Origin: a virus
Taxonomy: Duplodnaviria; Caudoviricetes
Direction: 5' to 3' (one strand)
DNA length: 64,000 nucleotides
IMG/VR virus record: IMGVR_UViG_3300037400_006004
Span: 1-64,000 of that record
The notes under the pieces were generated by a model. That model saw nothing but the letters and a program-made list of their open reading frames with translations, did not search any database and was not told where the DNA came from. Made by a program: the position numbers and the translations under genes. Numbering within the stretch: position 1 is the stretch's first letter; each line of letters starts with the position of its first letter. Of the stretch, positions 3,219 through 34,830 are shown piece after piece.

Positions 3219-3278
3219 TTTATTTTATTCCGTTTATAAACATAATTATATCCGATTATAATTTAAGGAGTGATATAT

Positions 3279-5000
3279 ATGCGTTGGGATACAGAAACTT
3301 TTAAAAAAGAAGTAGAAAAAAATAAAAGTTATAAATTATTATCAGAATATACTGGCTGTCATAATAAAGTAAAAATTTTACATGAAAAATGCAATAATAT
3401 TTATGAAGTTACACCTACTAATTTTTTAGCAGGAAGAAGATGCCCTAAATGTGCTATTTTAGAGCATAATAGAGATATCGCTAAAAAGAAAAGAAATAGA
3501 AATAGAACAACAGAGAGTTTTAAAAAAGAAATTTATGATTTAGTTGGAGATGAATATACAGTGTTGGGAGAATATGTAAGTACAGATACCCCAATTAAAG
3601 TAAAGCATAATATATGTAATACAATATATAACTCAAAACCATATAATTTCTTAGCAGGAAGAAGATGCCCTAAATGCAGTAAAATTAAAAGTTCTGAAAA
3701 GCATAAAATAGGAATTGAAGAGATTAAAAGAAGAGTAGAAAAAATTTTAGGCGATGATTATGAAGTACTATTAAAGCAACCATATATTGATAACAATACT
3801 AAAATTAAAGTTTATCATACTAAATGTGGTAAATTATTTGAAGCAACACCTACTAATTTATTAAAAGGAAGAGGTTGTTCTCATTGTAATAAGTCTGAAA
3901 AATACACTACAGAAAAATATCAAGAACTTTTAGGAGATAACTATACAGTTTTAAGTGAATATAAAACAAATAAAGATCCAATTACAGTAAGACATAATAA
4001 ATGTGGATACGAATGGACTGCTAGAGCATTAGATATTTTACATCCTTGGTGTAAAAATGATAAAACTATAGAAAGATGTCCTAAATGTAATAAAACTTTA
4101 GGTAAATCTTATGGAGAAAAAGAAGTATATAAATATCTTAAAGAAGATTTAGGTATTAAAAATATAATTGAAAATGATAGAACAATTCTTGACGGAAAAG
4201 AATTAGATATTTATCTTCCAGATTATAATTTGGCTATTGAATATGATGGTTTATATTGGCATTCAGAAAATTTTGTTGATAAAAAATATCATATTAATAA
4301 AACCAATGAATGTAAAAAGAAAGGAATTCAACTAATTCATTTAATGGAAGATGAATGGACTAATAAACAGGAATTAGTTAAAGAAAAATTAAAATATATG
4401 ACACATCATTCAACTAAATCTGTTTATGCTAGAAAATGTTATATTGAAGAAATTTCGGCATCTGATAAAAATGAATTCTTAGAAGAAAATCATATTCAAG
4501 GAAAAGATTCAGCACAAATTAAACTTGGATTATGGTATGAAGAAGGAAATGAAGCTATATTGGTTGCAGTTATGACTTTTTGTAAACCAAGATTATCATT
4601 AGGTCAAAAAAATAATAAAACAAAATTTGATTATGAATTATCCAGATATGCAACACAAAATGGGTTTAACGTAGTTGGTGGATTTTCAAAACTATTTAAA
4701 TATTTTGAAAGAAATTATGAATGGAAGAATATTATTACATATGCTGATTTAAGATGGTCTGTTGGAAACCTTTATCTAAAAAATGGTTTCGTGTTAGATC
4801 ATATTAGTGAACCAAGTTATTCATATATTAATAAAAGTAATATTAAACGTTTTAATCGATTTAAATTTAGAAAACAAGAATTACAAAAACAATTTCCTAA
4901 TATTTATTCAAATAATAAAACTGAATTTCAAATTATGAAAGAAGCTGGCTATTTAAAAATTTATGATTGTGGTAATATGGTATTTTATTATAATAAATAA
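3279..5000 (+). CDS. Free-standing Hef-like homing endonuclease (Zn-ribbon repeats, Vsr-like nuclease, GNAT/Mom-like C-terminal domain)
   Basis: Four H-x-x-C...CPKC repeats; ELDIYLP...AIEYDGLYWH; ARKC..NHIQG..YELSRYA..TYADLRWS; late promoter 3239-3250. Confidence 0.7.
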   Translation: MRWDTETFKKEVEKNKSYKLLSEYTGCHNKVKILHEKCNNIYEVTPTNFLAGRRCPKCAILEHNRDIAKKKRNRNRTTESFKKEIYDLVGDEYTVLGEYVSTDTPIKVKHNICNTIYNSKPYNFLAGRRCPKCSKIKSSEKHKIGIEEIKRRVEKILGDDYEVLLKQPYIDNNTKIKVYHTKCGKLFEATPTNLLKGRGCSHCNKSEKYTTEKYQELLGDNYTVLSEYKTNKDPITVRHNKCGYEWTARALDILHPWCKNDKTIERCPKCNKTLGKSYGEKEVYKYLKEDLGIKNIIENDRTILDGKELDIYLPDYNLAIEYDGLYWHSENFVDKKYHINKTNECKKKGIQLIHLMEDEWTNKQELVKEKLKYMTHHSTKSVYARKCYIEEISASDKNEFLEENHIQGKDSAQIKLGLWYEEGNEAILVAVMTFCKPRLSLGQKNNKTKFDYELSRYATQNGFNVVGGFSKLFKYFERNYEWKNIITYADLRWSVGNLYLKNGFVLDHISEPSYSYINKSNIKRFNRFKFRKQELQKQFPNIYSNNKTEFQIMKEAGYLKIYDCGNMVFYYNK

Positions 5001-5006
5001 AAAAAT

Positions 5007-5033
5007 ACCCCTAAGACAATTTGTCTTAGGGGT
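5007..5033. terminator. Bidirectional terminator between convergent units
   Basis: ACCCCTAAGAC / GTCTTAGGGGT. Confidence 0.75.
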
Positions 5034-5039
5034 TATTTA

Positions 5040-5423
5040 TTAAATAAGTTTTATAATAAGATATGATAGAAAAGAATCGGAAACTATATAATGCTCTTTA
5101 CAGTAATTAGTAGAATAATAACCGTATTCAGTTTTGTGTTCTTTAACTAATTCAAGTATCTTTATAACATTTTTCTCAATAAATTCTTTATTTTCTGCTT
5201 GTATTATTTTATAAAATGGTCTAGAATCAGTTGTTATTGCTGAAGTATTACTTTCATTAATGATAACTGTTAAATAATCAAAAATATGTCCATCTGCTAT
5301 TTCTTTTATTATAGTAGCTTTATCTCTATTATATTTTTTTAAATTTTTTTCTCTATAACCTTGTAAGTTTAATATTTCATCCATTAAACTTTTTACTCTA
5401 TTTGGATCATTGATAACTTCCAT
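5040..5423 (-). CDS. Array protein with shared C-terminal module
   Basis: Ends YIVSDSFLSYLIIKLI; start moved to ATG after AGAGGA. Confidence 0.7.
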   Translation of the reverse strand: MEVINDPNRVKSLMDEILNLQGYREKNLKKYNRDKATIIKEIADGHIFDYLTVIINESNTSAITTDSRPFYKIIQAENKEFIEKNVIKILELVKEHKTEYGYYSTNYCKEHYIVSDSFLSYLIIKLI

Positions 5424-5433
5424 TATATCCTCT

Positions 5434-6027
5434 CTAATCAATTATTTCTTTAAGACTTAGTAATGCATAAGTTTCTTCATCTACTGTACAAATAATAAGA
5501 TCCTTCCAAAATCTTTTACCATTATAAGCTTGCCCTATTCCTGCTTTAGCTTCTTTTACTACAGTTATATTTTTTATTTTAAGTATATTATCATCATTAA
5601 ATAAATAATTTATAAAAGAATGCCATTCTACATAACAAGATTCTTTACCAGTAGTAATTATAAAAAATCTAATACTATACATTATATCATTATTTATAAG
5701 TCTTTCTTCAATTTCATATTTATTATTTATCACGAAGCAATCTTTACTATTAAAAGCATATTCTATAATTTTATCTGAATTTATAACACATTTTTTATAA
5801 CGTTTATTTGGTTCATTTAATTTTAATGCTAATTTATATCTACAATAAGTATAACTAAAATTTTCTGGATTATTTAGAAATTCAAAAGTACTAATGGTTT
5901 TATTTTTACATTTAAAATCATCGAAAATAATAAAATCAAATAGGTCTGGTAATAATGAAATTTTGGCTCTACACACGTCATTTAAATCTTTATAAAATGG
6001 TAAATGAAATGCTATATTATTACTCAT
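5434..6027 (-). CDS. Array protein with shared C-terminal module
   Basis: Ends CTVDEETYALLSLKEIID; TAATG coupling with the upstream gene. Confidence 0.75.
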   Translation of the reverse strand: MSNNIAFHLPFYKDLNDVCRAKISLLPDLFDFIIFDDFKCKNKTISTFEFLNNPENFSYTYCRYKLALKLNEPNKRYKKCVINSDKIIEYAFNSKDCFVINNKYEIEERLINNDIMYSIRFFIITTGKESCYVEWHSFINYLFNDDNILKIKNITVVKEAKAGIGQAYNGKRFWKDLIICTVDEETYALLSLKEIID

Positions 6028-6194
6028 TATTTTACCTCCCAAAGCTGTTTAATAAGTTCCTTTCTAGTAGTGAAAACATCTGGGTTATTTCTATAAAGAT
6101 CTTCAATATACATATCTGCACCTACTTCAGTATAACGAATACCAAAAATTCTATTAGTAGCTGCCTCAATAATAACATAAACTGAATTTTTCAT
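6027..6194 (-). CDS. Small hypothetical protein (55 aa, not in ORF track)
   Basis: MKNSVYVIIEAATNRIFGIRY...KQLWEVK; GGAGAAG RBS; fills the gap exactly. Confidence 0.65.
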   Translation of the reverse strand: MKNSVYVIIEAATNRIFGIRYTEVGADMYIEDLYRNNPDVFTTRKELIKQLWEVK

Positions 6195-6196
6195 AA

Positions 6197-6541
6197 TTAA
6201 TCTTCTCCTAACTTTAAAATTTCATAATAAGCATAAAATTCATCAGATACAGTAATAATTGTATCAAAATTATATTTAAAATAATTTGCACAATTATCTT
6301 TAGTGTAAGTGTCTTTGGCGGTTGGACATCTCTGTGTAAAAGATAAGAAAGTACTTAGTACTGTATCCTTATCGTCTTTAATATTATTATAATAATCCTT
6401 TAAGATTTTATCATCGATTTCTTTAAAATCATTTTGATTACTTGCAGGAACTATTCTTACATGATCTATACGGTTGTGACTTTTATTTAAGCCACTAATA
6501 GCAAGATCGAATTTTTTTAAAAATTCTTCAGTTTGGTTCAT
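6197..6541 (-). CDS. Array protein with shared C-terminal module
   Basis: Ends ITVSDEFYAYYEILKLGED. Confidence 0.75.
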   Translation of the reverse strand: MNQTEEFLKKFDLAISGLNKSHNRIDHVRIVPASNQNDFKEIDDKILKDYYNNIKDDKDTVLSTFLSFTQRCPTAKDTYTKDNCANYFKYNFDTIITVSDEFYAYYEILKLGED

Positions 6542-6942
6542 TATAAATCCTCCTCTAAATATTTATATCTATATTGATATGCCGTTTGATTTGGGATAGT
6601 TTTAAGGATATCCTTAAGTTTTTCTAATCCAGTTTTTTCATTAATAGTATCAAGTAAAATTAACTCAGCATAACTATTTTCTTTTAGGAATATATTAATT
6701 TCCATATATTGTGCGTTCATTGTTTGAGGCCCTTCTAGTGTAGTAAGCTCAACAGTTGTTGTTTTTACTAAACCAATAAAGTCAAGAAGATCATCGTAAT
6801 GATCTTCTATATACTTTTTATTAAAAAGGCTATGATTTTTTAAATCATAAGTTTCATTAGTATTTCCATTATGTAAGATATAAACTCCAGTACAATTATA
6901 TTTTTGATTAATATCAAGCCATTCTTTTAATGTTTTTTTCAT
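6541..6942 (-). CDS. Array protein with shared module
   Basis: IFLKENSYAELILLDTIN followed by a short tail. Confidence 0.75.
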   Translation of the reverse strand: MKKTLKEWLDINQKYNCTGVYILHNGNTNETYDLKNHSLFNKKYIEDHYDDLLDFIGLVKTTTVELTTLEGPQTMNAQYMEINIFLKENSYAELILLDTINEKTGLEKLKDILKTIPNQTAYQYRYKYLEEDL

Positions 6943-6943
6943 T

Positions 6944-7303
6944 TTAACTCCTTTCAATTTCTGCTCTTAAATTAACAGTTGATTGATGTCTATTTGATGA
7001 AGTATCTAACATATTTAATAAAGTTAACTCAATATAAATATTTTCTGGAATTTTTATTAATAAATAGCTTATAGGGCTATTCGGTTTATTGGGAAAAGTC
7101 CATGCAATAGCAACTATAGATTGATTAATTAATTTTTCTCTATCGTTTAGCATATTGTCACGAAACCATTTAAAATATATTCTTGGTTCAATAATTGTTT
7201 TCTCATCTTCATTATATGTAATTACAATTGTTGTAAAACCTTTTATAGATAAAACTGTTTCTCTCCATTTAAAATATTTTATTTCTTTTTCCTCTTCTGT
7301 CAT
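6944..7303 (-). CDS. Array protein with shared module
   Basis: IKIPENIYIELTLLNMLD. Confidence 0.75.
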   Translation of the reverse strand: MTEEEKEIKYFKWRETVLSIKGFTTIVITYNEDEKTIIEPRIYFKWFRDNMLNDREKLINQSIVAIAWTFPNKPNSPISYLLIKIPENIYIELTLLNMLDTSSNRHQSTVNLRAEIERS

Positions 7304-7305
7304 AG

Positions 7306-7722
7306 TTAATCTCCTATTTCATTACCATTAATTAATTCAAGTAGATCAAAATAAACAAAAGCATCTTTTGATACATATACTTTCATAGTTACATAATTTT
7401 TAATATAATGAAAATAATAATGAGAATTTTTCATTATAGATGGTGCGTTATTAGTCTCTAGTCTAAGAATATGGTCACTAATATTAGTTTCATCTAAATC
7501 AGATGCTTTAATATAATCAAAGAAACTTTTTGGATTTCGTAGCATAGTTTCTTCTGAATAATATAAAGAATGTAAATTGTCTTCATATATTAGTTTAATT
7601 TCTAATTGTACGTCAGACCGACTTAGATAATATTCTTCAATATCCTTTAATTGATTAATTAGTATTTTATTTTTTTCTTCTTCCGATTGCCAAAATACTT
7701 TTAGTTCATCATCTAATCCCAA
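7306..7722 (-). CDS. Array protein with shared module
   Basis: VYVSKDAFVYFDLLELIN; TTG start after GGAAGTG. Confidence 0.75.
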   Translation of the reverse strand: MGLDDELKVFWQSEEEKNKILINQLKDIEEYYLSRSDVQLEIKLIYEDNLHSLYYSEETMLRNPKSFFDYIKASDLDETNISDHILRLETNNAPSIMKNSHYYFHYIKNYVTMKVYVSKDAFVYFDLLELINGNEIGD

Positions 7723-7745
7723 CTATATCACTTCCTTTCATTTAT

Positions 7746-7753
7746 ATAATATA
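7746..7753 (-). promoter_or_regulatory. Early-type promoter TATATTAT (internal to array)
   Basis: Motif shared with upstream regions of many non-structural genes. Confidence 0.55.
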
Positions 7754-7762
7754 TAAATGATA

Positions 7763-8224
7763 TTATTCAATAAGATTAAGTAACTCGAAATATGTAAAAG
7801 TTTCTTCATTGACTTTAAAGCAGTATGTCATAAATTTAAAAAATGAAGGAGGAATAGCAGTTGCTAAACTTACACCATTCCTTAAGTTTTCAATATACTC
7901 TAAAGCTTCTTCATCTTTTGTATCAGATACTACTGTAAATGAAGGAGTTAATTCTAAGAAAATTTCTTTTAATTTATTTTCATCATTGACAAATTCTTTA
8001 ATAAATTTAAAAAACTCAGTATGATTTATTCTAATTGTTTTTGTATCGTCATCTGGAGGCATAAGATAAATAGTTAAAGGACATAAAAAAGCTTTTTCTG
8101 CTTTTTCTAATAATGGAATTATTTCTATTAAAAAGAATTTTTTAATATCAGTATTAAATAGTTCTATTTCAGGAATATTAGTTTGAACACAATCATCTTC
8201 AAGAAATTCATTAAATGTTTTCAT
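7763..8224 (-). CDS. Array protein with shared module
   Basis: FKVNEETFTYFELLNLIE. Confidence 0.75.
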   Translation of the reverse strand: MKTFNEFLEDDCVQTNIPEIELFNTDIKKFFLIEIIPLLEKAEKAFLCPLTIYLMPPDDDTKTIRINHTEFFKFIKEFVNDENKLKEIFLELTPSFTVVSDTKDEEALEYIENLRNGVSLATAIPPSFFKFMTYCFKVNEETFTYFELLNLIE

Positions 8225-8367
8225 ATAATAGTAAGATCTCCTTTCCGATCTAAAGTATTATGCAATTTAAGTAAACTTTCAGTTGATTCTGGAAAATATA
8301 TATACAGAATACCCATAGAACTATTATACCAACTTTTAAATTCTATTTTAGTTATCAATCTGATCAT
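8221..8367 (-). CDS. Minimal array member (48 aa, not in ORF track)
   Basis: MIRLITKIEFKSWYNSSMGILYIYFPESTESLLKLHNTLDRKGDLTII; GGAGGA RBS; ATGA overlap with the next gene. Confidence 0.6.
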   Translation of the reverse strand: MIRLITKIEFKSWYNSSMGILYIYFPESTESLLKLHNTLDRKGDLTII

Positions 8368-8887
8368 AATCGTGTTTATCCTCCTTTACTAAAGAAATAG
8401 TCATAAAATATGCTTTAACTGCTTCACTACATGTTATTGTATAAATTCTTCTAGCTCCGCCTTCTCTATGCTTTCTAAGATTTTTAATTCCTGTAGGATT
8501 TAAAGTATATCCTGTTTCTTCTACTCTAAATGAAAAGAAATTTTCATTAATAAACTCAGTATTTTTTTCATTTAATAATTCATTAATATAATTAATAAAA
8601 TCAGTAATAGGAAATGTTATTTCATATGTATTATATGTCATAATCCTTGGTGAACCAAGAGAAGAAGTAAAATTACTAATGGCAGTAGCACCATCTTTAA
8701 CAGTTCTTTTAACATAAAATTCTTTAAAATATCTACATCTAAATTCCATATTAAGCCAAAAATCTTCATCGGATCTCATATTTACAATATCAGATCCTTC
8801 TTCAATTGTTTCAAGTAAATCTTCAAATACTTCAAATTTAGTTTTAGGTTTCAAATTTTCAAAAAATTCAGTTGTATTTCTAGTCAT
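8348..8887 (-). CDS. Array protein with shared module
   Basis: ITCSEAVKAYFMTISLVKE; closest to 9240..9932. Confidence 0.75.
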   Translation of the reverse strand: MTRNTTEFFENLKPKTKFEVFEDLLETIEEGSDIVNMRSDEDFWLNMEFRCRYFKEFYVKRTVKDGATAISNFTSSLGSPRIMTYNTYEITFPITDFINYINELLNEKNTEFINENFFSFRVEETGYTLNPTGIKNLRKHREGGARRIYTITCSEAVKAYFMTISLVKEDKHDYDQIDN

Positions 8888-9238
8888 TTAAATTCCCTCC
8901 ATAGGAAAACCTAATATATCTATTATTTTAAGATAAGCATGTATACTGTCGTAAAGTTCATTACGACAGTATACATGAATTATACTAAAAGTATCATCGC
9001 CTTCTAAGCCTTCTAAAGTAAATGGTGAATATACACCAATTTGCTTAACTAATGTAGAATGATCTATCTTTTCTGATAAATTATCAATTGTTTCTAAAAG
9101 ACTTTTTAGATAGGTACATGGAAAGTAAAGTAATATTTTAGTATCATCTTCATTATGTATTACAGAATATTTGACATTTTCATCGGTTGATAAAGCAGAA
9201 AGTAACTGAGATACAGTAAGATCTTTAACTTCTGTCAT
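8888..9238 (-). CDS. Array protein with shared module
   Basis: VYCRNELYDSIHAYLKIIDIL. Confidence 0.75.
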   Translation of the reverse strand: MTEVKDLTVSQLLSALSTDENVKYSVIHNEDDTKILLYFPCTYLKSLLETIDNLSEKIDHSTLVKQIGVYSPFTLEGLEGDDTFSIIHVYCRNELYDSIHAYLKIIDILGFPMEGI

Positions 9239-9239
9239 T

Positions 9240-9932
9240 TTAACCCTCCAATACAGATAAAGCTTCGAAATAAGCTTTTACTGCTTCAGTTGTTTCAATT
9301 TTACATGCAATATCAGGACGTTTTTTATGTTTAATAAACTTTTTAAGTTCACATCTACTACCAATATTTTTAAATGGATTATTTTTATCTTTATTATCTG
9401 TATAAGTTAGTTCAACTGAAAGAATATTTTCTTTTAAATAATCGTCATCGTCACCTAAATTTAAAAGAAAATCTACATCTGCGAAAATAGTTCCTTCTGG
9501 AACATTTTCTATTTTATCAAATACTACTGGATCGCCATTAAAATCCTTTAAAAGATAGCAATAAAGCTCTCCATTACAATATAATCCAATAGTATCATCA
9601 CATAGTTTATTCATTGTTGGCTGGGAGTCTAATTCGAAATTAAATCCTATTGAATCATAAAGATTTTTTAAATATCCAATAATATAAGCATTATTTAGTC
9701 CATATTTAGAAGGGTTATTACTTTTAAGGTCTTCCATAGTTTGTCCTGTAGTTTTAAAAACAACATTACTTACTACGTCATCTATTGTTTTACGTTTTTG
9801 ACCCATTAAAAACATTTTGTCTGTTTTTAATTTATTAAATATATATTTGAAATCATTAATATCTACTACAGGAAAGTTAACTTCTTTAGAAGTAAGATCT
9901 TTTATAAGTCTCTTCATATTTTTATTTATCAT
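9240..9932 (-). CDS. Array protein with shared module
   Basis: IETTEAVKAYFEALSVLEG. Confidence 0.75.
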   Translation of the reverse strand: MINKNMKRLIKDLTSKEVNFPVVDINDFKYIFNKLKTDKMFLMGQKRKTIDDVVSNVVFKTTGQTMEDLKSNNPSKYGLNNAYIIGYLKNLYDSIGFNFELDSQPTMNKLCDDTIGLYCNGELYCYLLKDFNGDPVVFDKIENVPEGTIFADVDFLLNLGDDDDYLKENILSVELTYTDNKDKNNPFKNIGSRCELKKFIKHKKRPDIACKIETTEAVKAYFEALSVLEG

Positions 9933-10377
9933 GTTTACCTCCTAATTGGTCAAGATTTAATATACTTTGAAGGGCTATTTCAGCATAAGCAGACTCAGTA
10001 ATAGATATATCATAATGATAAAAATCAAATGGATGTGTTGTTGGAGAATCTTTTAGATTTTTTCCAAAATCTTCATTATCCATATCTAATACATTAGCGT
10101 ATTCAAGATTTATTGAAATAATATCATCTTTAACTTTTTTGAATATTTCATTCATGCCACCAATTCCATTAGTTTTAAGATAATTCTTTACTTTATAACG
10201 TTGATTTAAGAATTGATTAAAACTAGTAAGACTAAAAGATAAAGCAGGATGTCCTTCACAACTCATAAGACATCCTACTCTTTCTTCAAAACCTATTCGA
10301 TTAAGTATATTTAGAATATATAAACCATCTCTGTTTTCTTTTTTAGAATCATATATAACTTCTCTAAAGAATTCCAT
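9922..10377 (-). CDS. Array protein with shared module
   Basis: ISITESAYAEIALQSILN. Confidence 0.75.
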   Translation of the reverse strand: MEFFREVIYDSKKENRDGLYILNILNRIGFEERVGCLMSCEGHPALSFSLTSFNQFLNQRYKVKNYLKTNGIGGMNEIFKKVKDDIISINLEYANVLDMDNEDFGKNLKDSPTTHPFDFYHYDISITESAYAEIALQSILNLDQLGGKHDK

Positions 10378-10387
10378 TTAAACCTCC

Positions 10388-10834
10388 TTAAAGTGTTGAA
10401 GGGTCTTTTATACCAGTAACCCAAAAATCATAGATTTCTTTCATAGTTTTACCCATTGATTCATAAATAATATTATCTCGATAAGGAAAATCTGTAGTTA
10501 GATAAAGAATATTAAGTCTAGCATATCCTTCATCTGTTACATAAACTTTAAACTTATCAGTATGAACTGATATACTATTAGGATCTTTATTAACAAATTC
10601 TTCTACTGTAACTTTGTTAACTATATCACGTCCATCTTCAAGTTTAATAAGTAATAAATATCTTAACTTATAACTTTTCATAATAATAGTTTCATTAGTT
10701 TCTAAATTAATAAGATCGACAATAATAGATTCATCCATTATTTTATCCATTATATCTGTAAAATATATTGGATCAGACCATAAACTAAAATGGTAAAGCT
10801 CTTTTTCCTTTTGGTTGTTTTCCATAAGCTTCAT
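10388..10834 (-). CDS. Array protein with shared module
   Basis: VYVTDEGYARLNILYLT plus tail. Confidence 0.7.
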   Translation of the reverse strand: MKLMENNQKEKELYHFSLWSDPIYFTDIMDKIMDESIIVDLINLETNETIIMKSYKLRYLLLIKLEDGRDIVNKVTVEEFVNKDPNSISVHTDKFKVYVTDEGYARLNILYLTTDFPYRDNIIYESMGKTMKEIYDFWVTGIKDPSTL

Positions 10835-11441
10835 ACCTCCATCTCTTTTTTTCCTTTTCTAATCTAGTGTTTTCATCAAATTTCTTTTTTAACTCAGTTG
10901 TAAAATCTTTTAGTAATTTACTTTTGTTATATTTACTTATACTAGTGATATCATTCATATAATATCTATAAGCTATATCAGTATCATGATATTCAAGAGT
11001 AGGAAATAATGTTAATATATTAATAATATCTCCATCGAAATCACTAGACTTAGATCTAATATCACTTACAACACTTTTTTGTCCATATCTATTAGTTAAT
11101 ATAGGGTGATCGCTATTTTCTCCTATTACATTTTCTAATTCTAATAGTGCATAAAGTTCTTGTGTAACAGTTATTACAAAAGTTTTATATGAAGAATACT
11201 CTACTGAAATAAGCTCAAATTTACTAATGCCATTTTTAACAACATTATAATTTTCATTTCTGAAAATTACATCACATAATAATATACTATTAGTTTTAAA
11301 AGAAGTTACTGGAGATTTAGGAAATTCAAGAAGTTTAACTTCTACTTCTCTTCCGATACAATAACCTGCACTATTAACTATATTAACTAAAGTATCGATT
11401 ATTGGTTGAGATAAATTCATTTTATTTTTTCTCATTTTCAT
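10785..11441 (-). CDS. Array protein, module internal
   Basis: ITVTQELYALLELENVIG followed by a ~110 aa extension. Confidence 0.7.
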   Translation of the reverse strand: MKMRKNKMNLSQPIIDTLVNIVNSAGYCIGREVEVKLLEFPKSPVTSFKTNSILLCDVIFRNENYNVVKNGISKFELISVEYSSYKTFVITVTQELYALLELENVIGENSDHPILTNRYGQKSVVSDIRSKSSDFDGDIINILTLFPTLEYHDTDIAYRYYMNDITSISKYNKSKLLKDFTTELKKKFDENTRLEKEKKRWRYEAYGKQPKGKRALPF

Positions 11442-11443
11442 AT

Positions 11444-11815
11444 TTATTCTCCTTTTTTATTATTTTCATTAATAGTATATTTTAATGATACTTCAGTACA
11501 AATATCTAATGCTCTTTTATGTTTAGGTTTTAATAAACATAAAAATTTCTTTTGCAAGTTCATTGTAGGCATATTACTCGGTATATCTTTTTTTCTTATT
11601 ATTCTTCCAGTATATTTTTCATAGAAACATGTGTCAAAAGTAACTTCAAAATCATCTTCTTCTGTTTCATTTAATAATCTTAAAAATGTATCTGTGTCTA
11701 TAGGATAAGTTTGATCTAATTCAGGTAAGTAAATAGTAGGTATTATATTTTCGTTAAATATAGATTTATGACACATAATATCATACATCATTTCTTTGTA
11801 TTTAAATAATGCCAT
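11444..11815 (-). CDS. Array protein, variant module
   Basis: LLKPKHKRALDICTEVSLKYTIN; paralogue of 11841..12185. Confidence 0.7.
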   Translation of the reverse strand: MALFKYKEMMYDIMCHKSIFNENIIPTIYLPELDQTYPIDTDTFLRLLNETEEDDFEVTFDTCFYEKYTGRIIRKKDIPSNMPTMNLQKKFLCLLKPKHKRALDICTEVSLKYTINENNKKGE

Positions 11816-11840
11816 TAGAATTCTCCTTTTTTTTACTTTT

Positions 11841-12185
11841 TTATTTTAATCCTAGTATATGATTAGTTACATATTCTTGAGATAAAAGATCTATTTCAAA
11901 CGGATTAGTTTCTTCTGTCTTTAATGTTTTTTCCATTAAATATGCAGCACAAATTTGTAAAGCTCTGTCATTAGCTGGATATAATACAAAATAAAAATTA
12001 TCATCTTTCCATTTAGACTCGACATTAAAATCAGAATTTTCAGTTTCTTCAATCATTTTCTGAACTAATTTTAATTCATAATTTAAAATTAATTCTTTAG
12101 AATCTGGAATAGACACAACTACAATTGGAACTTTTCTTGGATTTGAACATAAAAGTAACATTAACTGTGTATAATTAAATAACAT
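11841..12185 (-). CDS. Array protein, variant module
   Basis: VLYPANDRALQICAAYLMEKTL. Confidence 0.7.
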   Translation of the reverse strand: MLFNYTQLMLLLCSNPRKVPIVVVSIPDSKELILNYELKLVQKMIEETENSDFNVESKWKDDNFYFVLYPANDRALQICAAYLMEKTLKTEETNPFEIDLLSQEYVTNHILGLK

Positions 12186-12197
12186 TAAAATTCCTCC

Positions 12198-12590
12198 TTA
12201 GTTAACATTAGAAAATAATTGATTTATAGCTAATTGAGCATATATATTATCTTTAATAGTAAGTGTAGTCATTTCTAAACATGTGCCTGTTGCTATAAGA
12301 TTTATACATTCATATGACATATCAATAAATATACTCTCAACAAATTCTCTATAATTTTGAAAATCAAAATTACTTTTAAGAAATCTATTAGTAAATATAT
12401 TAGTAGGTATTAATATTGGAATATCTTCAGTTTCACCAAATAATCTTAAACTAGTCTTTAATTTATAATCCCAATTATATGGAATTATTTCTCCTCTGTC
12501 TTTTTTGTTATTAAGTGTTTTACCACTACCTGAAAAGATATAATAACCTATTCTAAGATCTTTACTTCCTATGGGTTTACTTATTTGCAT
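12198..12590 (-). CDS. Array protein with shared module
   Basis: MTTLTIKDNIYAQLAINQLF; paralogue of 12581..13027. Confidence 0.75.
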   Translation of the reverse strand: MQISKPIGSKDLRIGYYIFSGSGKTLNNKKDRGEIIPYNWDYKLKTSLRLFGETEDIPILIPTNIFTNRFLKSNFDFQNYREFVESIFIDMSYECINLIATGTCLEMTTLTIKDNIYAQLAINQLFSNVN

Positions 12591-13027
12591 TTTCTTAACA
12601 CATCCTCCAGCATTATTTGAGCATATAAATTACAATCTATTACAATTGTAGTCATATGTTCTGGTATATAATTATCATATGAATTTTGAATGAATATATC
12701 TTCATAAGATATATTCTTTATCATTTCATTTAATTTATCTACTTCTTTATCATCACAATTCATACTTATAATAGCTTGATTTGTAGAGAAAACTAAATAT
12801 CCCATTTGTTTAATAATAGTTAAAAATATAGATGGTCTCATAAGCATTATTTCATTCAAATCATTTTCATTTATAATTCGTAGTGTTCCACTGGTAAATC
12901 TTGTTATACCAGGTACATATCTACCAATTTCACCCCTTTCAATATTTACTAATCGTTCATTGCTTATTTCTTCATTAAAAAGTATTTTAGTAATAGATGG
13001 TTTAAGTAAATTTAACTCACCAATCAT
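12581..13027 (-). CDS. Array protein with shared module
   Basis: MTTIVIDCNLYAQIMLEDVL. Confidence 0.75.
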   Translation of the reverse strand: MIGELNLLKPSITKILFNEEISNERLVNIERGEIGRYVPGITRFTSGTLRIINENDLNEIMLMRPSIFLTIIKQMGYLVFSTNQAIISMNCDDKEVDKLNEMIKNISYEDIFIQNSYDNYIPEHMTTIVIDCNLYAQIMLEDVLRKCK

Positions 13028-13039
13028 AATATCACCTTC

Positions 13040-13364
13040 TTAAGTAATAACAGAATTTAACATATCAAGAGCAATTAAAGTTTCATCTTTACAGTTAATA
13101 GTAACTATTAAACTAGTTAAATTTTTATCTTCATTACGTACTGTTTTATACCAATTCTTTAGATGATCACTTACATCATCAATATTTATGCTTTCAATAT
13201 GGTTTAATAAATCATCATCACTATTAAGCATTTCATATAATCTTGTATATTTAATATTTCTTTTTTTTAGATTTATAAGTTAAAATCCACTGTATAGATG
13301 AATCTGACATACAACCTATTCTGACAATTCTATTTAGTCTATTTTCTATTTCATATCTTTCCAT
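13040..13364 (-). pseudogene. Array gene frameshifted in an A8 tract (13261-13268)
   Basis: Strong RBS plus ATG at 13364 (MERYEIENRL...); removing one A joins it to 13040..13231, ending INCKDETLIALDMLNSVIT. Confidence 0.7.
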
Positions 13365-13387
13365 AAAAGATACCTCCTTTCATTTTT

Positions 13388-13395
13388 ATAATATA
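13388..13395 (-). promoter_or_regulatory. Early-type promoter TATATTAT (internal to array)
   Basis: Same motif and context (..AAATGAAAGGA) as the 7746 site. Confidence 0.55.
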
Positions 13396-13398
13396 AAT

Positions 13399-13854
13399 TT
13401 AATTAATTACTCTCATTAACTCAAACATAGTATAATCATTTTCAGTTAGTACTATTTCTACTGGAGAAAAATCTGAACTATCTGGTACAGTTTTATTAAA
13501 TCTTTGTATATAATTTTTAGAATTGAAAAAATCTTGGTTATTCAAATTATTGAATAACCAATTTAATACATCAATTTTACTTACTTCATTTCTATATAAT
13601 TTACTTTCTTTTTTAGTTGTGACATACCATTTTATAGATACTCTTGATGTTTCTGTAAATAATGCAAATTTCCATGCTAAATATAATCCTTCATTAGTAG
13701 TTAAACTAATTTTATCATAATAATCATAAACAGAAAAGCTATATAAATGAAGTTTTTCTGCCATATCTTTTATTACAGTCCAAGGCTCTCCATAACGTAA
13801 AGCTTCATACATTTTAATATCATTTGATGGACACATTACTGAAATATCTTCCAT
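13399..13854 (-). CDS. Array protein, possibly two module copies
   Basis: LTTNEGLYLAWKFALF and IVLTENDYTMFELMRVIN. Confidence 0.75.
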   Translation of the reverse strand: MEDISVMCPSNDIKMYEALRYGEPWTVIKDMAEKLHLYSFSVYDYYDKISLTTNEGLYLAWKFALFTETSRVSIKWYVTTKKESKLYRNEVSKIDVLNWLFNNLNNQDFFNSKNYIQRFNKTVPDSSDFSPVEIVLTENDYTMFELMRVIN

Positions 13855-13855
13855 A

Positions 13856-14311
13856 TTATAATACCCCCTTATCTAAACCTAAATCATTTTCCCACCTATA
13901 GTGTGGATCTTCTTCACTTTCAGATAATCTTACTTCTGTAATTACATCTTTTAAAGATAATTTAACATAATTTTCTTCTTTTAGATATACTGTAATTTTT
14001 GCACATTTATTTTGCTTATATTTCCAATCATGAGTAAACCAAGTGAATGATTTATAAGTACCATCAGAGCTTTCAATTTCTATCTTATTAATCAGTTTAT
14101 ACTTATCTTCTTCTTCCATTTCATCAAGTAATCTTGTTAATCTAGCTGATGACATAGTATAAGAAGAATTAATATCATCTTGATTGGTTATATGAAGTTG
14201 TATATGCTTATTATTTAGCTGTCTTAGAATTTCATCTAATACAGACTTCGGAGTTTTTTCATTATAAAGATAAGAAATCATTGATTTAGCTTCTTTAACT
14301 TTCACTTTCAT
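13856..14311 (-). CDS. Array protein with shared module
   Basis: VYLKEENYVKLSLKDVIT. Confidence 0.75.
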   Translation of the reverse strand: MKVKVKEAKSMISYLYNEKTPKSVLDEILRQLNNKHIQLHITNQDDINSSYTMSSARLTRLLDEMEEEDKYKLINKIEIESSDGTYKSFTWFTHDWKYKQNKCAKITVYLKEENYVKLSLKDVITEVRLSESEEDPHYRWENDLGLDKGVL

Positions 14312-14687
14312 TACATTCTCCTAATACATATTTGATTAATAAAAATGAATATAACTCTTCTGAAGTTATAATAATATTTGCAACAATATTTGGGTTATGA
14401 TATCTATAATCTACTCTTTCAATATCATTTTTAAGTAATAAATATATGAATATTGGATTTTGAAGATCATGTGATAAATGGCCTTTATTAAAATAATAAC
14501 TTCTAATATTTTTCATAAACGCTTTATAACCAAAATTTCTTGATTGCCAAGTATTAAAATAAAAGCAATTATTTTTATATTTTACATTTATAGTACAATA
14601 TGAAACTAGAATTTCTTTAAGAATAATATCTAAATCATTAGAATTTTCTTCATCATTAATATCATAAAACATTGATCGCATATCCAT
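14295..14687 (-). CDS. Array protein with shared module
   Basis: IIITSEELYSFLLIKYVLG. Confidence 0.75.
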   Translation of the reverse strand: MDMRSMFYDINDEENSNDLDIILKEILVSYCTINVKYKNNCFYFNTWQSRNFGYKAFMKNIRSYYFNKGHLSHDLQNPIFIYLLLKNDIERVDYRYHNPNIVANIIITSEELYSFLLIKYVLGECNESES

Positions 14688-14689
14688 AA

Positions 14690-15130
14690 TTAGTTCTCCC
14701 TTAATATTTCTCTTAATTTTAAATAAGAATACACATCTTCACTTATATTAACTTTAAGAAATAATGTATGTTCTCCATAATTTAAACGAACTGGCATATA
14801 TACAATATTTTCTTTATTTTCGTCATCTTCTAAACCAAGGATAAAATTATTACTAATAGTGTTACTGCTTTTTAGTTTAAAAAATTTATTAAATGTTTCC
14901 TCATTAATGTTACAAATATATTGATATAATTCAGAACATTCTCTAGAAATAAAATAACATTTGTCTGAATGACTCATTATCCATTCTTCATTACATGGAT
15001 TTATCATTCCAGTTTTACATATAAATACAGGTTTATTATTATAATAGAAATATACCCAATATCTATTCATACTTAAAAAACTTTTAAAAAATTCATATGT
15101 AAATTCAACTTCAAATGTAGGTATATACAT
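14690..15130 (-). CDS. Array protein with shared module
   Basis: VNISEDVYSYLKLREILRE. Confidence 0.75.
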   Translation of the reverse strand: MYIPTFEVEFTYEFFKSFLSMNRYWVYFYYNNKPVFICKTGMINPCNEEWIMSHSDKCYFISRECSELYQYICNINEETFNKFFKLKSSNTISNNFILGLEDDENKENIVYMPVRLNYGEHTLFLKVNISEDVYSYLKLREILREN

Positions 15131-15143
15131 ATTAATTTCCTCC

Positions 15144-15674
15144 TTAATTATCTAGAGTTGATTTAAGAGATAAGAATGCAGCAATAGAATCTGAAAGTTC
15201 TTTTGGAACTACATATGACAAATATGAAAAATCATATACATCAAATTTTATATTTGGCATATTTTCTTTAAATTTATTTGCAAAAAATTCCATTCTTTTT
15301 TCTATTTGTTTATTTGCAAAGGTAATTGTTTTTATTTTAAATTCATTATAGAATTCTTCTTCATTAAGAGATTCTACATAATTTAAAATCATTTCAGTTA
15401 TTTCTCTTGTATATGGTCTATATTTATCTTCGCTAGATATATAAATTATAGCTTTATTATTCTTATCATAAATTCCTAATGTATAATTGATAGTAGCATT
15501 CCAATTAGGATTTTCTTCAAAAATTCCTTCTATAGATTTTCCATCATTAGTAATACCTTTATATGGTTTAGGACAATTATCTAAGATAGTTATAATATAC
15601 TTTATAAAATTATTATAACCTATATTTTCAGTAAAATAATTTTTAATGAATAATAATAATTCGGAATGTGTCAT
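15144..15674 (-). CDS. Array protein with shared module
   Basis: YVVPKELSDSIAAFLSLKSTLD. Confidence 0.75.
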   Translation of the reverse strand: MTHSELLLFIKNYFTENIGYNNFIKYIITILDNCPKPYKGITNDGKSIEGIFEENPNWNATINYTLGIYDKNNKAIIYISSEDKYRPYTREITEMILNYVESLNEEEFYNEFKIKTITFANKQIEKRMEFFANKFKENMPNIKFDVYDFSYLSYVVPKELSDSIAAFLSLKSTLDN

Positions 15675-15675
15675 T

Positions 15676-16122
15676 TTAAACCTCCATCATTTTCATTAAA
15701 TCAAAATGAGTTTTAACTTCTTCAGATATTTCAAATACAAATATAAATATATCTTCAGGTCTTATCTTTGGATGATTACCTCCAACGACTATATTCATTA
15801 TTGTATGTTCATCATAATATTGTAAAGATCTTTTTGTTTTATTTAATATTAAACCAACTCTACAACCTTTTTCATATGGTATATCATAATCAATTAATTC
15901 AAAATTAGAATTAAAATATCCATCAGTAATATTTTCAAGATATTCTCTAAATTTTTCTATATGTGTCAAATTTTTTTTTAAATATAATTTCAATGGATCA
16001 TGTGGACATATTATTGAAAAATTATAAATATCTTCTCCTTTATATCTTAATACTACACTTGGATACTGATTAACTAAAATACTTTTAATTACAGTATTTC
16101 TTGTTATTTTATAAATAAACAT
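15676..16122 (-). CDS. Array protein with shared module
   Basis: FEISEEVKTHFDLMKMME. Confidence 0.75.
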   Translation of the reverse strand: MFIYKITRNTVIKSILVNQYPSVVLRYKGEDIYNFSIICPHDPLKLYLKKNLTHIEKFREYLENITDGYFNSNFELIDYDIPYEKGCRVGLILNKTKRSLQYYDEHTIMNIVVGGNHPKIRPEDIFIFVFEISEEVKTHFDLMKMMEV

Positions 16123-16134
16123 AAAGCCTCCTTA

Positions 16135-16644
16135 TTATTCATCTACTAATAACTTAACTTTGAATGTTGTATATAAATCTTTATCACAAAGAAAAATGTA
16201 ATTACAATAAGCTACACTTGATGCTACATTAGTTTTTTCAGTAGTTAAATTTCGTTCATACTCAAAAATAAGGTTTTTTATCTGATCTAATTCAAGACCA
16301 GATAAAAATTTAAAGAAATTAAAAACTTTTCTTCCATCAATAATCACAGCTCCTGGTTCTGGAAGAGGAAATCTTAAAGTTATTCTAATAGCAATTGGAT
16401 GTGGTAATTGTCCAACTCTTAAATCACTAAATGGATAATAACGTCTAGCAATATTATAATATTCATCTGCTACAAATGCACCACTAACATTTCTATCAAA
16501 GTTTAAATTAAAAGATTCTTTAAACTCTTTTTCAGTTATATTTTTCATTTTTGTTTGATTATAATATTTAGAATGGAATCCAATATTATTAAGAATTTCT
16601 AAAGTCATATCTATATTAAATGGATCTGCACAATAATTTCTCAT
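16135..16644 (-). CDS. Array protein with shared module
   Basis: FLCDKDLYTTFKVKLLVDE. Confidence 0.75.
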   Translation of the reverse strand: MRNYCADPFNIDMTLEILNNIGFHSKYYNQTKMKNITEKEFKESFNLNFDRNVSGAFVADEYYNIARRYYPFSDLRVGQLPHPIAIRITLRFPLPEPGAVIIDGRKVFNFFKFLSGLELDQIKNLIFEYERNLTTEKTNVASSVAYCNYIFLCDKDLYTTFKVKLLVDE

Positions 16645-16659
16645 AATTTTATTCTCCTT

Positions 16660-17292
16660 TTAAAGTTTTAAAGTTGCTTTTAAAGAAATTTTAGCAATTT
16701 CCGCTTCAGTAAGACCTAAAATATAAAGTCTTCCATTTTTTAAATCAAAATAACATTTTATTTCTGATTTTTTTCTTTGACTTTGACTTTTTAGTTTTAG
16801 TTTACTAATAAATAATCTAAACATTTTTAGATTTGGTTGATTATTAAATGCTTTAAGTTGATGTATAAATTGGTATATTTCATTATTATCAAGCGTAATT
16901 ATTAAATTATCACTTAAAACTATATCTAACTTATAATACATACATATAAATTTATGGAAATTTTTAGCTATATCACTATATCCAGTTATAATAGCATCAC
17001 GACTAAAACCATTAGAACCACCATTCATGTTTAATGATTTTTCAGAAAGATCATCTATTTTGAAATTTTGTGCTGCTAAATTAACAATAATTTTAAAATA
17101 AATTTCATCCATAAAATTACCTATACAATATAGATCATCTAAAACAATTATTCTATTTTTATCATTGCATTCATAAGAAGTATTAATAGTATAATTACCA
17201 TTTTCATTTTTTGAAAGTCTAATTTTATCATAACGTGAGTCAAATGTATGATATATTATATTATCTACACAATTAAAAATACTTTTATCCAT
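16660..17292 (-). CDS. Array protein; C-terminus matches the LRR-like repeat proteins
   Basis: YFDLKNGRLYILGLTEAEIAKISLKATLK. Confidence 0.75.
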   Translation of the reverse strand: MDKSIFNCVDNIIYHTFDSRYDKIRLSKNENGNYTINTSYECNDKNRIIVLDDLYCIGNFMDEIYFKIIVNLAAQNFKIDDLSEKSLNMNGGSNGFSRDAIITGYSDIAKNFHKFICMYYKLDIVLSDNLIITLDNNEIYQFIHQLKAFNNQPNLKMFRLFISKLKLKSQSQRKKSEIKCYFDLKNGRLYILGLTEAEIAKISLKATLKL

Positions 17293-17294
17293 AA

Positions 17295-17843
17295 TTAATC
17301 CTCCAAAGGTCTTTTATCATTTTTCATATATTTAAGGTATTTTACAAATAATTTAGATTTTAAATCATTAAGTCTTAAATATGCATCTATCGTCTTTTCA
17401 TAATCTCCATCATAATCATAAGCAGAATTTGGTAATAACCAATTTGAATATGTTCTATTATCTACTGTAAGTAAAAGAGCAATATATGAAAATAATTTTT
17501 CACTTACAAAATACTGAGTATCACTAAAATGATGCGTACTATTTTTTAATAAATCATCAGTAGTATAACCGATAAGTTCAGTATTTTTATTTTCGATAAA
17601 TTCATGATAGCATTCATTAGATGCTAATATATTAAATAAAAAATATGGATGAACTGTAAGACAATGTTCACCTACATCAAAACGATTTTGTTTCATATAC
17701 GGAACTCTTACAAAAACTTCAATATCTGCTGCTGCATTCTCATCTCCTAACTTAAATATGATATCTTCACTTCTTTCAGGTTTTGTTTTAGCATCAAAAT
17801 AATATGGATAAAAATTATCCTCTTCAGCAATTTTTTTAATCAT
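17295..17843 (-). CDS. Array protein, module internal
   Basis: YFVSEKLFSYIALLLTVD plus tail. Confidence 0.7.
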   Translation of the reverse strand: MIKKIAEEDNFYPYYFDAKTKPERSEDIIFKLGDENAAADIEVFVRVPYMKQNRFDVGEHCLTVHPYFLFNILASNECYHEFIENKNTELIGYTTDDLLKNSTHHFSDTQYFVSEKLFSYIALLLTVDNRTYSNWLLPNSAYDYDGDYEKTIDAYLRLNDLKSKLFVKYLKYMKNDKRPLED

Positions 17844-17855
17844 TTTAAATTCTCC

Positions 17856-18116
17856 TTAACTATTTAAAGTCAATTTTAAATCAAATAAAGTTTTCATAAT
17901 TTCATATAACTCATCATTTACTTCAAAATCAATTATATAACCAACATAGCTAATTTTAATGATTTTATTCCTATAATCATTCAACATTGTAACAACATCA
18001 TTAATATCTAAATTTATCAAATAATTATTATTTTTATTAGAAATTTCAAATATATACATAAATGGAGTATCATTAACATATTTTACAAATTCCTCAATAT
18101 CATTTGGTGTTATCAT
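17856..18116 (-). CDS. Array protein (compact 86 aa member)
   Basis: FEVNDELYEIMKTLFDLKLTLN. Confidence 0.75.
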   Translation of the reverse strand: MITPNDIEEFVKYVNDTPFMYIFEISNKNNNYLINLDINDVVTMLNDYRNKIIKISYVGYIIDFEVNDELYEIMKTLFDLKLTLNS

Positions 18117-18136
18117 ATTTTCCTCCTTATAAAAAG

Positions 18137-18167
18137 AAACCCCTAAGAGAAATTCTCTTAGGGGTTT
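18137..18167 (-). terminator. Terminator hairpin after gyrA
   Basis: AAACCCCTAAGAGA / TCTCTTAGGGGTTT. Confidence 0.7.
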
Positions 18168-18172
18168 TATAT

Positions 18173-23068: not shown

Positions 23069-23168
23069 TAAAAATCCTCCTGTCAATAAATTAGAATTTT
23101 ATTCCAAATATATAATATATGCTTAAAATAAAAAAATAGACCCATAAAATGGGTCTATTTTTTATATA

Positions 23169-33268: not shown

Positions 33269-33370
33269 AAAAAAATAACCCTTATGGATTTTTTCCATAA
33301 GGGTTTTTATATTTATATTATTTATTTGAAATAATAAATTTTAATATTTTAAAAAGTGAGGTATGTAAAT

Positions 33371-34747: not shown

Positions 34748-34830
34748 AAATATTTCTTAAGGAAATTTTCCTTAAGAAATATATATACAAATATAAAATA
34801 TAATATTTTAAGTCTAAAGGAGAAAATATT

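What the first reader, a model, noticed from the sequence alone, without database searches (positions are those of the whole stretch)
5040..18116. 13-kb array of ~30 hypervariable small genes sharing one C-terminal strand-helix module: candidate new adaptor/effector system
Seen: 30 tightly packed, often translationally coupled minus-strand ORFs (48-230 aa) with no obvious N-terminal similarity. About 27 carry, at or near the C-terminus, a hydrophobic strand followed by [STNK]-[ED]-[EDN]-x-[YF]-[ASTV]-x-[LFI]-x-[LI]-xxx-[LI]. Examples: TVDEETYALLSLKEII, TVSDEFYAYYEILKL, KVNEETFTYFELLNLI, SITESAYAEIALQSIL, TVTQELYALLELENVI, NISEDVYSYLKLREIL, TSEELYSFLLIKYVL, VLTENDYTMFELMRVI. Neighbouring pairs are closer paralogues, and internal early promoters sit at 13388 and 7746. 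Inference: an expanded family in which a constant module docks on one shared partner (protease/unfoldase, chaperonin, RNAP, a transport gate or a hetero-oligomer) while variable regions recognise different host targets such as defence proteins, by analogy to F-box/SOCS-box adaptor families. I recognise no described family for it.
Basis: partly seen in the sequence, partly recalled or inferred. Interest (0 to 1): 0.9.

Follow-up and report, generated by a model that had tools for sequence, protein, structure and literature searches.

The report
Expanded early small-protein family in phage
A cattle-gut giant phage carries a 13-kb block of about 30 fast-evolving early genes; 27 of them share a conserved final strand-plus-helix, which looks like the core of one small protein fold that has no match in any database, and the block is a likely but untested host-takeover or anti-defence arsenal.

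Summary
Window 5040-18116 (-) contains 30 packed ORFs, and 27 share an 18-residue strand / N-cap / helix motif. A profile built only from other phages ranks array genes as its top 11 hits among 527 ORFs. Conservation lies in codon positions 1 and 2, so it is at the protein level.

The 'docking adaptor' reading is not supported. AlphaFold models of an 86-aa and a 153-aa member give the same order, alpha-beta-beta-alpha-beta-beta-alpha, with the motif as the last strand and helix. The conserved residues are typical buried or helix-capping positions. No intact member is shorter than about 86 aa, and six members carry 21-113 residues after the motif.

The best reading is a clade-restricted expansion of one small acidic cytoplasmic fold in a hypervariable island after gyrA:
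- Two AR9-type early promoters lie inside the array.
- dN/dS is 0.41, against 0.03-0.06 for gyrase. It is 0.20 in the motif and 0.45 elsewhere.
- Close strains differ by whole-gene gains and losses. Related phages have 0, 7, 8 or 12 genes at this site.

Pfam, PHROGs, PDB, BFVD and a 1.84-billion-protein search find nothing outside this clade. Function is inferred, not shown: probably host takeover or counter-defence. This is a new member of a known kind (phage early-gene expansions), of moderate interest.

The parts
5040..18116 (-). Array of 30 small ORFs (48-230 aa). 27 carry the strand/N-cap/helix motif, and two more (11444-11815, 11841-12185) look like diverged members.
17856..18116 (-). 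Smallest intact member (86 aa). AlphaFold order is a1-b1-b2-a2-b3-b4-a3; the motif is b4 plus a3 (nt 17880-17933).
   Evidence: pLDDT 81, pTM 0.66
7763..8224 (-). Typical 153-aa member. It has the same core order plus an N-terminal extension and an insert between b3 and b4. The motif is at nt 7772-7825, with pLDDT about 90 or more.
10785..11441 (-). 218-aa member with the best-scoring motif in mid-protein (aa 88-105, nt 11127-11180), followed by 113 residues.
6027..6194 (-). 55-aa gene without the motif. It is the only array gene with orthologues in distant relatives: it is the single ORF after gyrA in L001/L012 and is also present in L003. It marks the ancestral backbone.
11444..12185 (-). 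Two adjacent ORFs (123 and 114 aa) that the profile misses. They have the same strand/helix layout and a variant last helix shared by the two. Probably diverged members.
   Evidence: no hit; read by eye
13381..13400 (-). AR9-type early promoter match (12 of 13 consensus bases, N6, G), directly upstream of the RBS and ATG at 13362-13364.
   Evidence: consensus from PMC5312081
7739..7758 (-). AR9-type early promoter match (11 of 13, N6, G), 17 nt upstream of gene 7306-7722.
13040..13364 (-). One 107-aa member, split in the window into 37-aa and 63-aa ORFs by an extra A in an A8 run at 13261-13268. It is intact, with A7, in strain L019.
8221..8367 (-). 48-aa remnant (b-b-a) of a 129-aa member that is intact in strain L019. 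The window lacks about 690 bp here.
18136..18168 (.). GC-rich hairpin (CCCCTAAGA...TCTTAGGGG) between gyrA and the array. Strain sequences diverge from the window immediately after the gyrA stop.
5007..5033 (.). Near-identical hairpin at the other end of the array. It is the left edge of a block replacement in run X3.
18173..20671 (-). gyrA-like topoisomerase subunit. Conserved anchor used to find related phages and strains.
3270..5000 (+). 576-aa zinc-ribbon (DUF4379-like) gene. Conserved anchor on the far side of the island.

Best explanation
The array is a clade-specific expansion of one small, acidic, cytoplasmic alpha/beta domain of about 86 aa with order a-b-b-a-b-b-a. It sits in a hypervariable island between gyrA and a conserved zinc-ribbon gene of a cattle-gut AR9-like giant phage.

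The shared 'module' is the last strand and helix of that domain. It holds the core hydrophobics and a helix N-cap with a hydrophobic staple, so it stays recognisable while the rest of each paralogue diverges beyond sequence detection.

The genes lie in early transcription units, presumably read by the injected virion RNA polymerase. They are kept by purifying selection but evolve about 6-15 times faster than the neighbouring gyrase. Whole genes are gained, lost and replaced between strains.

Inferred mechanism (not shown): each paralogue uses its variable surface and inserts to bind and block or redirect a different host protein, such as defence or housekeeping factors, early in infection. The array would then be a strain-specific host-takeover or counter-defence arsenal.
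For: Shown:
- The motif is real, specific to the array and conserved at protein level.
- Two members modelled separately have the same order of elements, with the motif as the final strand and helix at high confidence. The same PDB chain region (4pde_A 39-112) tops both VIA lists.
- Intact members are never shorter than about 86-88 aa in four phages. The two shorter ORFs are truncations.
- AR9 early-promoter matches occur inside the array and upstream of gyrB, and about 25 more lie in front of minus-strand genes.
- At equal dS (0.13), dN/dS is 0.41 for the array, against 0.026 for gyrB and 0.064 for gyrA. It is 0.20 in the motif and 0.45 in the rest; Fisher p=0.006 on amino-acid changes.
- There are five whole-gene indels against a strain 92-97% identical in DNA. 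Two block replacements appear in run X3. Strains with 99% identical GyrA differ from the first base after the gyrA stop.
- Related phages hold 0-1, at least 7, at least 8 or about 12 genes at this site.
- 22 of 30 proteins have pI below 6, and none has a membrane segment.

Inferred: the takeover or counter-defence role rests on analogy with early hypervariable small-gene regions of other phages.
Against: - No function, target or expression was observed, and the host is unknown.
- Upstream of the motif no sequence homology is detectable. The common fold therefore rests on two AlphaFold models built with family alignments of low quality, at pLDDT 75-81.
- The first block of the array (18116-13400) has no early-promoter match of its own and follows a terminator-like hairpin.
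- dN/dS below 1 does not show an arms race.
- A DUF285 fusion in a relative shows the element can be joined to another binding domain, which would also fit an adaptor.
Confidence: 0.55

Rival explanations
1. Adaptor family. The constant C-terminal element docks all paralogues on one shared machine, such as a protease or unfoldase, RNA polymerase, a chaperonin or a transport gate. The variable parts recruit different host targets, as in F-box or PRANC proteins.
For: - The motif is more constrained than the rest of each protein.
- In relative L003 a DUF285 repeat protein carries the motif at its C-terminus.
- In relatives the proteins usually end 0-3 residues after a very hydrophobic helix.
Against: - The conserved positions are those expected for a buried strand, a helix cap and a packed helix face. 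The only conserved charge is the acidic N1/N2 of the helix.
- The models place the motif inside the domain.
- Six members have 21-113 residues after the motif.
- No candidate partner was found.
- No F-box, SOCS or other adaptor domain is detected.
Confidence: 0.12
2. Oligomerisation element. The terminal strand and hydrophobic helix pair between chains, by sheet extension or helix packing, so members form homo-oligomers or mixed oligomers.
For: - The helix is unusually hydrophobic, especially in relatives.
- The genes are co-transcribed and translationally coupled, which favours co-assembly.
- The motif resembles the strand plus first helix of ribbon-helix-helix dimers.
Against: - The monomer models already bury the strand in a four-stranded sheet.
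- The second helix of a ribbon-helix-helix is absent.
- No experimental or computational support for pairing was obtained.
Confidence: 0.12
3. The proteins act on the phage's own programme or against competing phages, rather than against host defence. Examples would be modulators of the two phage RNA polymerases or of replication, or superinfection exclusion.
For: - Early units next to gyrase, helicase and RNA polymerase subunit genes.
- A precedent exists for a roughly 35-copy small-protein expansion in Bacillus phage G, suggested there to be transcription factors or DNA-binding proteins (PMC7824862).
Against: - Most members are acidic, which does not fit DNA binding.
- Close relatives do without the array altogether (L001, L012, L007), so it is not part of the core programme.
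Confidence: 0.1
4. Artefact. The motif would reflect AT-rich composition, a repeated DNA element, or the ribosome-binding sites that overlap gene ends.
For: GGAGG of the next gene does shape the last few codons of many members.
Against: - Shuffled, reversed and non-array controls fail to reproduce it.
- Cross-phage profiles recover the array in both directions.
- Third codon positions carry almost no information.
- The motif lies 10-130 codons from the next start and is internal in six members.
Confidence: 0.02

Closest known systems
[quoted passage not shown]
   Same: Dozens of small paralogues of one domain in a giant phage, generated by duplication; function unknown or only guessed.
   Different: Here the copies are so diverged that only 18 residues align. 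The domain matches no family or solved fold. The array is shown to vary between close strains and lies in early units.
Hyperplastic early regions and the internal-protein locus of T4-like phages
   Same: A strain-variable block of small genes between conserved anchors. In the internal-protein locus a short constant element is attached to variable, defence-countering cargo.
   Different: The T4 element is an N-terminal capsid-targeting peptide removed by the prohead protease, and those proteins are virion cargo made late. Here the constant part is C-terminal and part of the fold, the N-termini are unalike, and the genes follow early promoters.
Host-takeover modules of large Bacillus phages such as SPO1 (from my own knowledge)
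   Same: Clusters of about 20-30 small early genes with their own early promoters, thought to shut off or redirect host functions.
   Different: Those genes are mostly unrelated to each other. Here 27-29 belong to one family.
F-box / PRANC-type adaptor families of eukaryotes and poxviruses
   Same: A variable binding part plus a constant C-terminal element, in large fast-evolving families. One relative has a repeat-domain fusion.
   Different: No sequence or fold similarity. The constant element here is a strand plus helix inside an alpha/beta domain, not an independent helical box. No ligase-like or other partner is known.
Ribbon-helix-helix (Arc/MetJ/CopG) domains
   Same: A strand followed by a capped amphipathic helix with a similar residue pattern.
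   Different: The second helix is missing, the element lies at the C-terminus, the proteins are acidic, the strand is modelled within an intramolecular sheet, and there is no Pfam match.

Membership tests
Ribbon-helix-helix superfamily | Strand-helix-helix unit of about 45 aa with a second helix after a short turn | tested here: not met
   17 of 27 members end 8 or fewer residues after the first helix. The models show one terminal helix.
Ribbon-helix-helix superfamily | Match to RHH sequence families | tested here: not met
   No RHH family is reported for any of the 30 proteins in Pfam.
F-box / SOCS-box / PRANC adaptors | Recognisable helical box domain | tested here: not met
   Pfam gives no such hit. 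The motif is modelled as strand plus helix within an alpha/beta domain.
F-box / SOCS-box / PRANC adaptors | Binding of the constant element to one shared partner | not testable with these tools
   No partner candidate and host unknown; needs pull-downs.
DUF285 / BspA-like repeat proteins | DUF285 repeats | tested here: not met
   None of the 30 array proteins matches. DUF285 is present in window 33356-36072 and in L003 12569-13198.
T4-type internal proteins | Conserved N-terminal capsid-targeting peptide with a protease site | tested here: not met
   In the full-length alignment A5 only the start Met is conserved at the N-terminus.
Phage lineage-specific expansion / hypervariable early-gene island (a kind, not a protein family) | Tandem same-strand paralogues of one domain | tested here: met
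   27 profile-positive members in one 13-kb run. Recent tandem duplicates at 52-63% identity occur in L003.
Phage lineage-specific expansion / hypervariable early-gene island (a kind, not a protein family) | Variable content between conserved anchors in related genomes | tested here: met
   0-30 genes lie between gyrA and the zinc-ribbon gene in eight related contigs and strains.
Phage lineage-specific expansion / hypervariable early-gene island (a kind, not a protein family) | Early expression | tested here: inconclusive
   Promoter-consensus matches only. No RNA run is listed.
Any solved fold (PDB) | Structural match of the modelled domain | tested here: inconclusive
   Foldseek E is 0.1 or more. 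VIA best Z is 4.3 and 3.1. The profile against PDB sequences gives 0 hits.

The most novel reading that the evidence does not exclude
The conserved terminal strand-helix is a common handle. Through it, some 27 early proteins, and in relatives a DUF285 repeat protein, would plug into one shared phage or host machine or into each other. That would make a prokaryotic-virus counterpart of F-box-type adaptor families, in which strain-specific variable domains deliver different host defence proteins to a common fate.
Probability: 0.1. Interest if true: 0.85.

Novelty: new member of a known kind. Interest (0 to 1): 0.45.

Why it matters
Jumbo phages are suspected to hide many counter-defence proteins among their small unnamed genes. 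This island gives a concrete, bounded candidate set:
- It is one fold diversified into about 30 versions.
- It lies in early transcription units.
- It turns over gene by gene between natural strains in cattle guts.

If the members bind different host targets, the array would be a natural library on a single scaffold, useful for finding new defence systems and inhibitors. It would also document how a phage builds such an arsenal by duplication and divergence. The domain may also be a fold not yet represented in structure databases. The limits are that the phage and host are uncultured and that no function is shown.

Tried and rejected
Searches that found nothing:
- megablast of the array against GenBank phages: no match.
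- IMG/VR scan with GyrA: none.
- PHROGs for all 30 proteins and Pfam for all 30: only scattered sub-threshold hits with no shared family.
- Profile of 50 members against 1.84 billion representatives: 9 hits, all query members or their strain variants.
- Profile against PDB sequences: 0 hits.
- ESM Atlas: no usable hit.
- Foldseek against PDB and BFVD, and VIA-align wide, on both models: nothing significant. Two small proteins of 'Myoviridae sp. ctAca11' recur weakly, which is a lead only.

Tests without a usable result:
- Homodimer prediction for the 86-aa member: 'no answer'. It is not used as evidence either way.
- The genome search on the relatives' records: records not held. I could therefore not test whether phages lacking the array at this site carry it elsewhere.
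- No RNA holder is listed among public runs, so expression is untested.
- hhalign of the regions upstream of the motif, window members against relatives and odd against even members, scored no better than reversed or shuffled controls. The test is weak because those regions do not align.
- Earlier-scan lookup by sequence: nothing.

Ideas rejected:
- The earlier-scan claim that the two DUF285 proteins at 33356-36072 end in the same module. Their C-termini score -0.2 and -4.6 and are not found by the HMM.
- A DNA-level repeat, or ribosome-binding-site overlap, as the source of the motif.
- A strict C-terminal signal such as a degron, tail anchor or secretion tag, because the motif is internal in six members and there are no membrane segments.
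Full report
CONTEXT. The window is the first 64 kb of a single 106,618-bp contig with about 25% G+C. Its GyrA-like gene (18173-20671, -) has relatives at 48-99% identity on metagenomic contigs of up to 184-299 kb. The contig is therefore probably part of a jumbo phage. The neighbours include gyrB, a PIF1-type helicase and a split RNA polymerase beta-like gene. The AR9 early-promoter consensus AAATATATATTAT-N6-G (PMC5312081) matches about 25 intergenic sites in front of minus-strand genes. Public runs that hold the sequence are bovine-gut metagenomes.

Thirty minus-strand ORFs of 48-230 aa fill 5040-18116. Twenty of 29 junctions overlap or are 2 nt or less apart, and the next gene's Shine-Dalgarno often lies in the last codons of the previous gene. 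Pairwise BLASTP finds nothing significant among them.

An 18-residue matrix, and a gapped HMM, detect a strand / S-T-D cap / acidic pair / aromatic / small residue / hydrophobic helix face in 27 of 30. The controls are as follows.
- Leave-one-out scores beat the 99th percentile of shuffles in 13/30 members, against 3/107 other proteins of the genome that hold seven times more residues. Reversed sequences do not score.
- The profile finds nothing else in the 106 kb at E<0.1.
- An HMM made only from arrays of other phages ranks window array ORFs as its top 11 hits of 527 ORFs.
- The window-only HMM ranks array ORFs of three other phages as its top 10 of 94 ORFs, always at the C-terminus.
- Information content sums to 5.1, 12.3 and 2.6 bits for codon positions 1, 2 and 3, with Leu and Ser drawn from different codon families. 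The conservation is therefore in the protein, not in a DNA repeat or the overlapping ribosome-binding site.

WHAT THE MOTIF IS. AlphaFold2 on the smallest intact member (86 aa, 17856-18116) gave pLDDT 81 and pTM 0.66, with the order a1-b1-b2-a2-b3-b4-a3. A 153-aa member (7763-8224) gave pLDDT 75 and pTM 0.65, with the same order plus an N-terminal extension and an insert between b3 and b4. Its last strand and helix, which are the motif, have pLDDT of about 90 or more. The same region of the same PDB chain (4pde_A 39-112) heads both VIA lists, and several other chains recur, which fits one shared topology. All scores are low, however (Z 4.3 and 3.1; Foldseek E of 0.1 or more), so no known fold can be assigned.

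The conserved positions read as fold-core features:
- alternate strand positions that are hydrophobic;
- an N-cap S/T with acidic N1/N2;
- a hydrophobic residue before the cap and an aromatic at N4, the classic 'hydrophobic staple' (textbook knowledge);
- a small residue at the next position, which is the most conserved column;
- a hydrophobic i/i+4/i+7 helix face.

Intact members are never shorter than 86-90 aa in four phages. The window's 48-aa and 63-aa ORFs are truncated copies of 129-aa and 107-aa genes that are intact in a sister strain. The 63-aa ORF was cut off by an extra A in an A8 run at 13261-13268. Six members carry 21-113 residues after the motif. Together this points to the last beta-alpha unit of a domain of about 86 aa, not to a free-standing tag.

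One caveat applies. Upstream of the motif no sequence homology can be shown, so the common fold rests on two models made with poor family alignments.

EVOLUTION.
- Distant relatives. With GyrA as anchor, related contigs show the same site to be hypervariable. One 54-aa ORF in L001/L012 is the orthologue of the motif-less 55-aa gene 6027-6194, the only array gene conserved across phages. L007 has nothing at the site. L009 has at least 7 motif-bearing genes. L015 has at least 8, plus an ABC-type ATPase. L003 has about 12, including four recent tandem duplicates at 52-63% identity and a DUF285 repeat protein that ends in the motif. No motif-bearing gene has a detectable orthologue across these phages.
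- Sister strain. L018/L019 is 92-97% identical in DNA, has a syntenic array, and differs by five whole-gene indels. At equal dS (about 0.13), dN/dS is 0.41 for the array (range 0.09-0.95), against 0.026 for gyrB and 0.064 for gyrA. Within members it is 0.20 in the motif and 0.45 elsewhere, with amino-acid changes 27/378 vs 340/2881 (Fisher p=0.006).
- Other strains. Contigs of strains with 99% identical GyrA diverge from the window at the first base after the gyrA stop and end about 105 nt later. In run X3 one contig joins 5005 to 8361 with 593 other letters between, and another joins 14364 to 18172 with 409 other letters. That strain therefore lacks about 7 kb of the array.
- Neighbours. Adjacent paralogues are slightly more alike than distant ones (p=0.016), as expected for tandem duplication.

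EXPRESSION AND PROPERTIES. AR9-type early-promoter matches sit at 13381-13400 and 7739-7758 inside the array and at 23105-23124 upstream of gyrB. The first block, 18116-13400, has none and follows a hairpin. No RNA data were available. Twenty-two of 30 proteins have pI below 6 (median 5.2, against 6.6 for other proteins of the phage), and none has a membrane segment.

INTERPRETATION. I read the array as a clade-restricted expansion of one small acidic fold in an early, strain-variable island. It is under purifying selection but evolves fast, which is the usual signature of host-takeover or counter-defence genes. That function is inferred by analogy only.

The adaptor model keeps some room, because the motif is more constrained than the rest and a DUF285 fusion exists in a relative. 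It lacks any positive evidence and is disfavoured by the fold-core nature of the motif. Oligomerisation and phage-internal roles are the other live rivals. The artefact explanations are excluded.

COMPARISON AND NOVELTY. No match was found in Pfam, PHROGs, PDB sequences, BFVD or the ESM Atlas. A full HMMER pass over 1.84 billion representatives returned only the query members and their strain variants. The phenomenon itself is known: jumbo phages with arrays of more than 30 similar genes (PMC13282480), and a roughly 35-copy zinc-ribbon expansion in phage G (PMC7824862). I therefore file this as a new member of a known kind, with an unassigned and possibly new fold and unusually well documented strain-level turnover. 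Interest is moderate (0.45). It would be high only if a common partner or a set of defence targets were demonstrated.

Noticed in passing
window 5007-5033 and 18136-18168 (also about 82724 of the contig): Near-identical GC-rich hairpins (CCCCTAAGA...TCTTAGGGG) bracket the array. They are the only copies in the 64-kb window, and a third lies at about 82.7 kb. The 99%-GyrA strains carry a different hairpin after gyrA. They may be terminators that also serve as recombination borders.
   Followed up: partly
window 13261-13268: An A8 run splits a 107-aa gene into 37-aa and 63-aa ORFs; strain L019 has A7 and an intact gene. This could be a sequencing error, a pseudogene or slippage.
   Followed up: partly
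window 20321/20322; L018 2281-6096: A sister strain has a LAGLIDADG intein (Intein_splicing + LAGLIDADG_3) inserted in gyrA at this point (1271-aa product). The window's gyrA lacks it.
   Followed up: no
L015 6740-8302: A 520-aa ABC-type ATPase (PF00005, with a weak SMC_N hit) sits inside the small-gene array of a related phage.
   Followed up: no
L018 6977-7570: A 197-aa gene without the motif and with no Pfam hit is inserted in the sister strain between the orthologues of 17295-17843 and 16660-17292.
   Followed up: no
whole contig, minus strand: About 25 intergenic matches to the AR9 early-promoter consensus AAATATATATTAT-N6-G, nearly all in front of minus-strand genes. This supports an AR9-like virion RNA polymerase programme.
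   Followed up: partly
window 33356-36072: Two adjacent DUF285 (BspA-like) repeat proteins of 463 and 413 aa, the first behind an early-promoter match at 33309-33328. Their C-termini look loosely like the motif by eye but do not score.
   Followed up: yes
window 5040-5441, 5434-6042, 6541-6957: The TTG starts given by the ORF finder are probably too far upstream. Orthologues in L019 are 5-6 residues shorter and begin at the internal ATG, so some apparent gene overlaps are overstated.
   Followed up: partly
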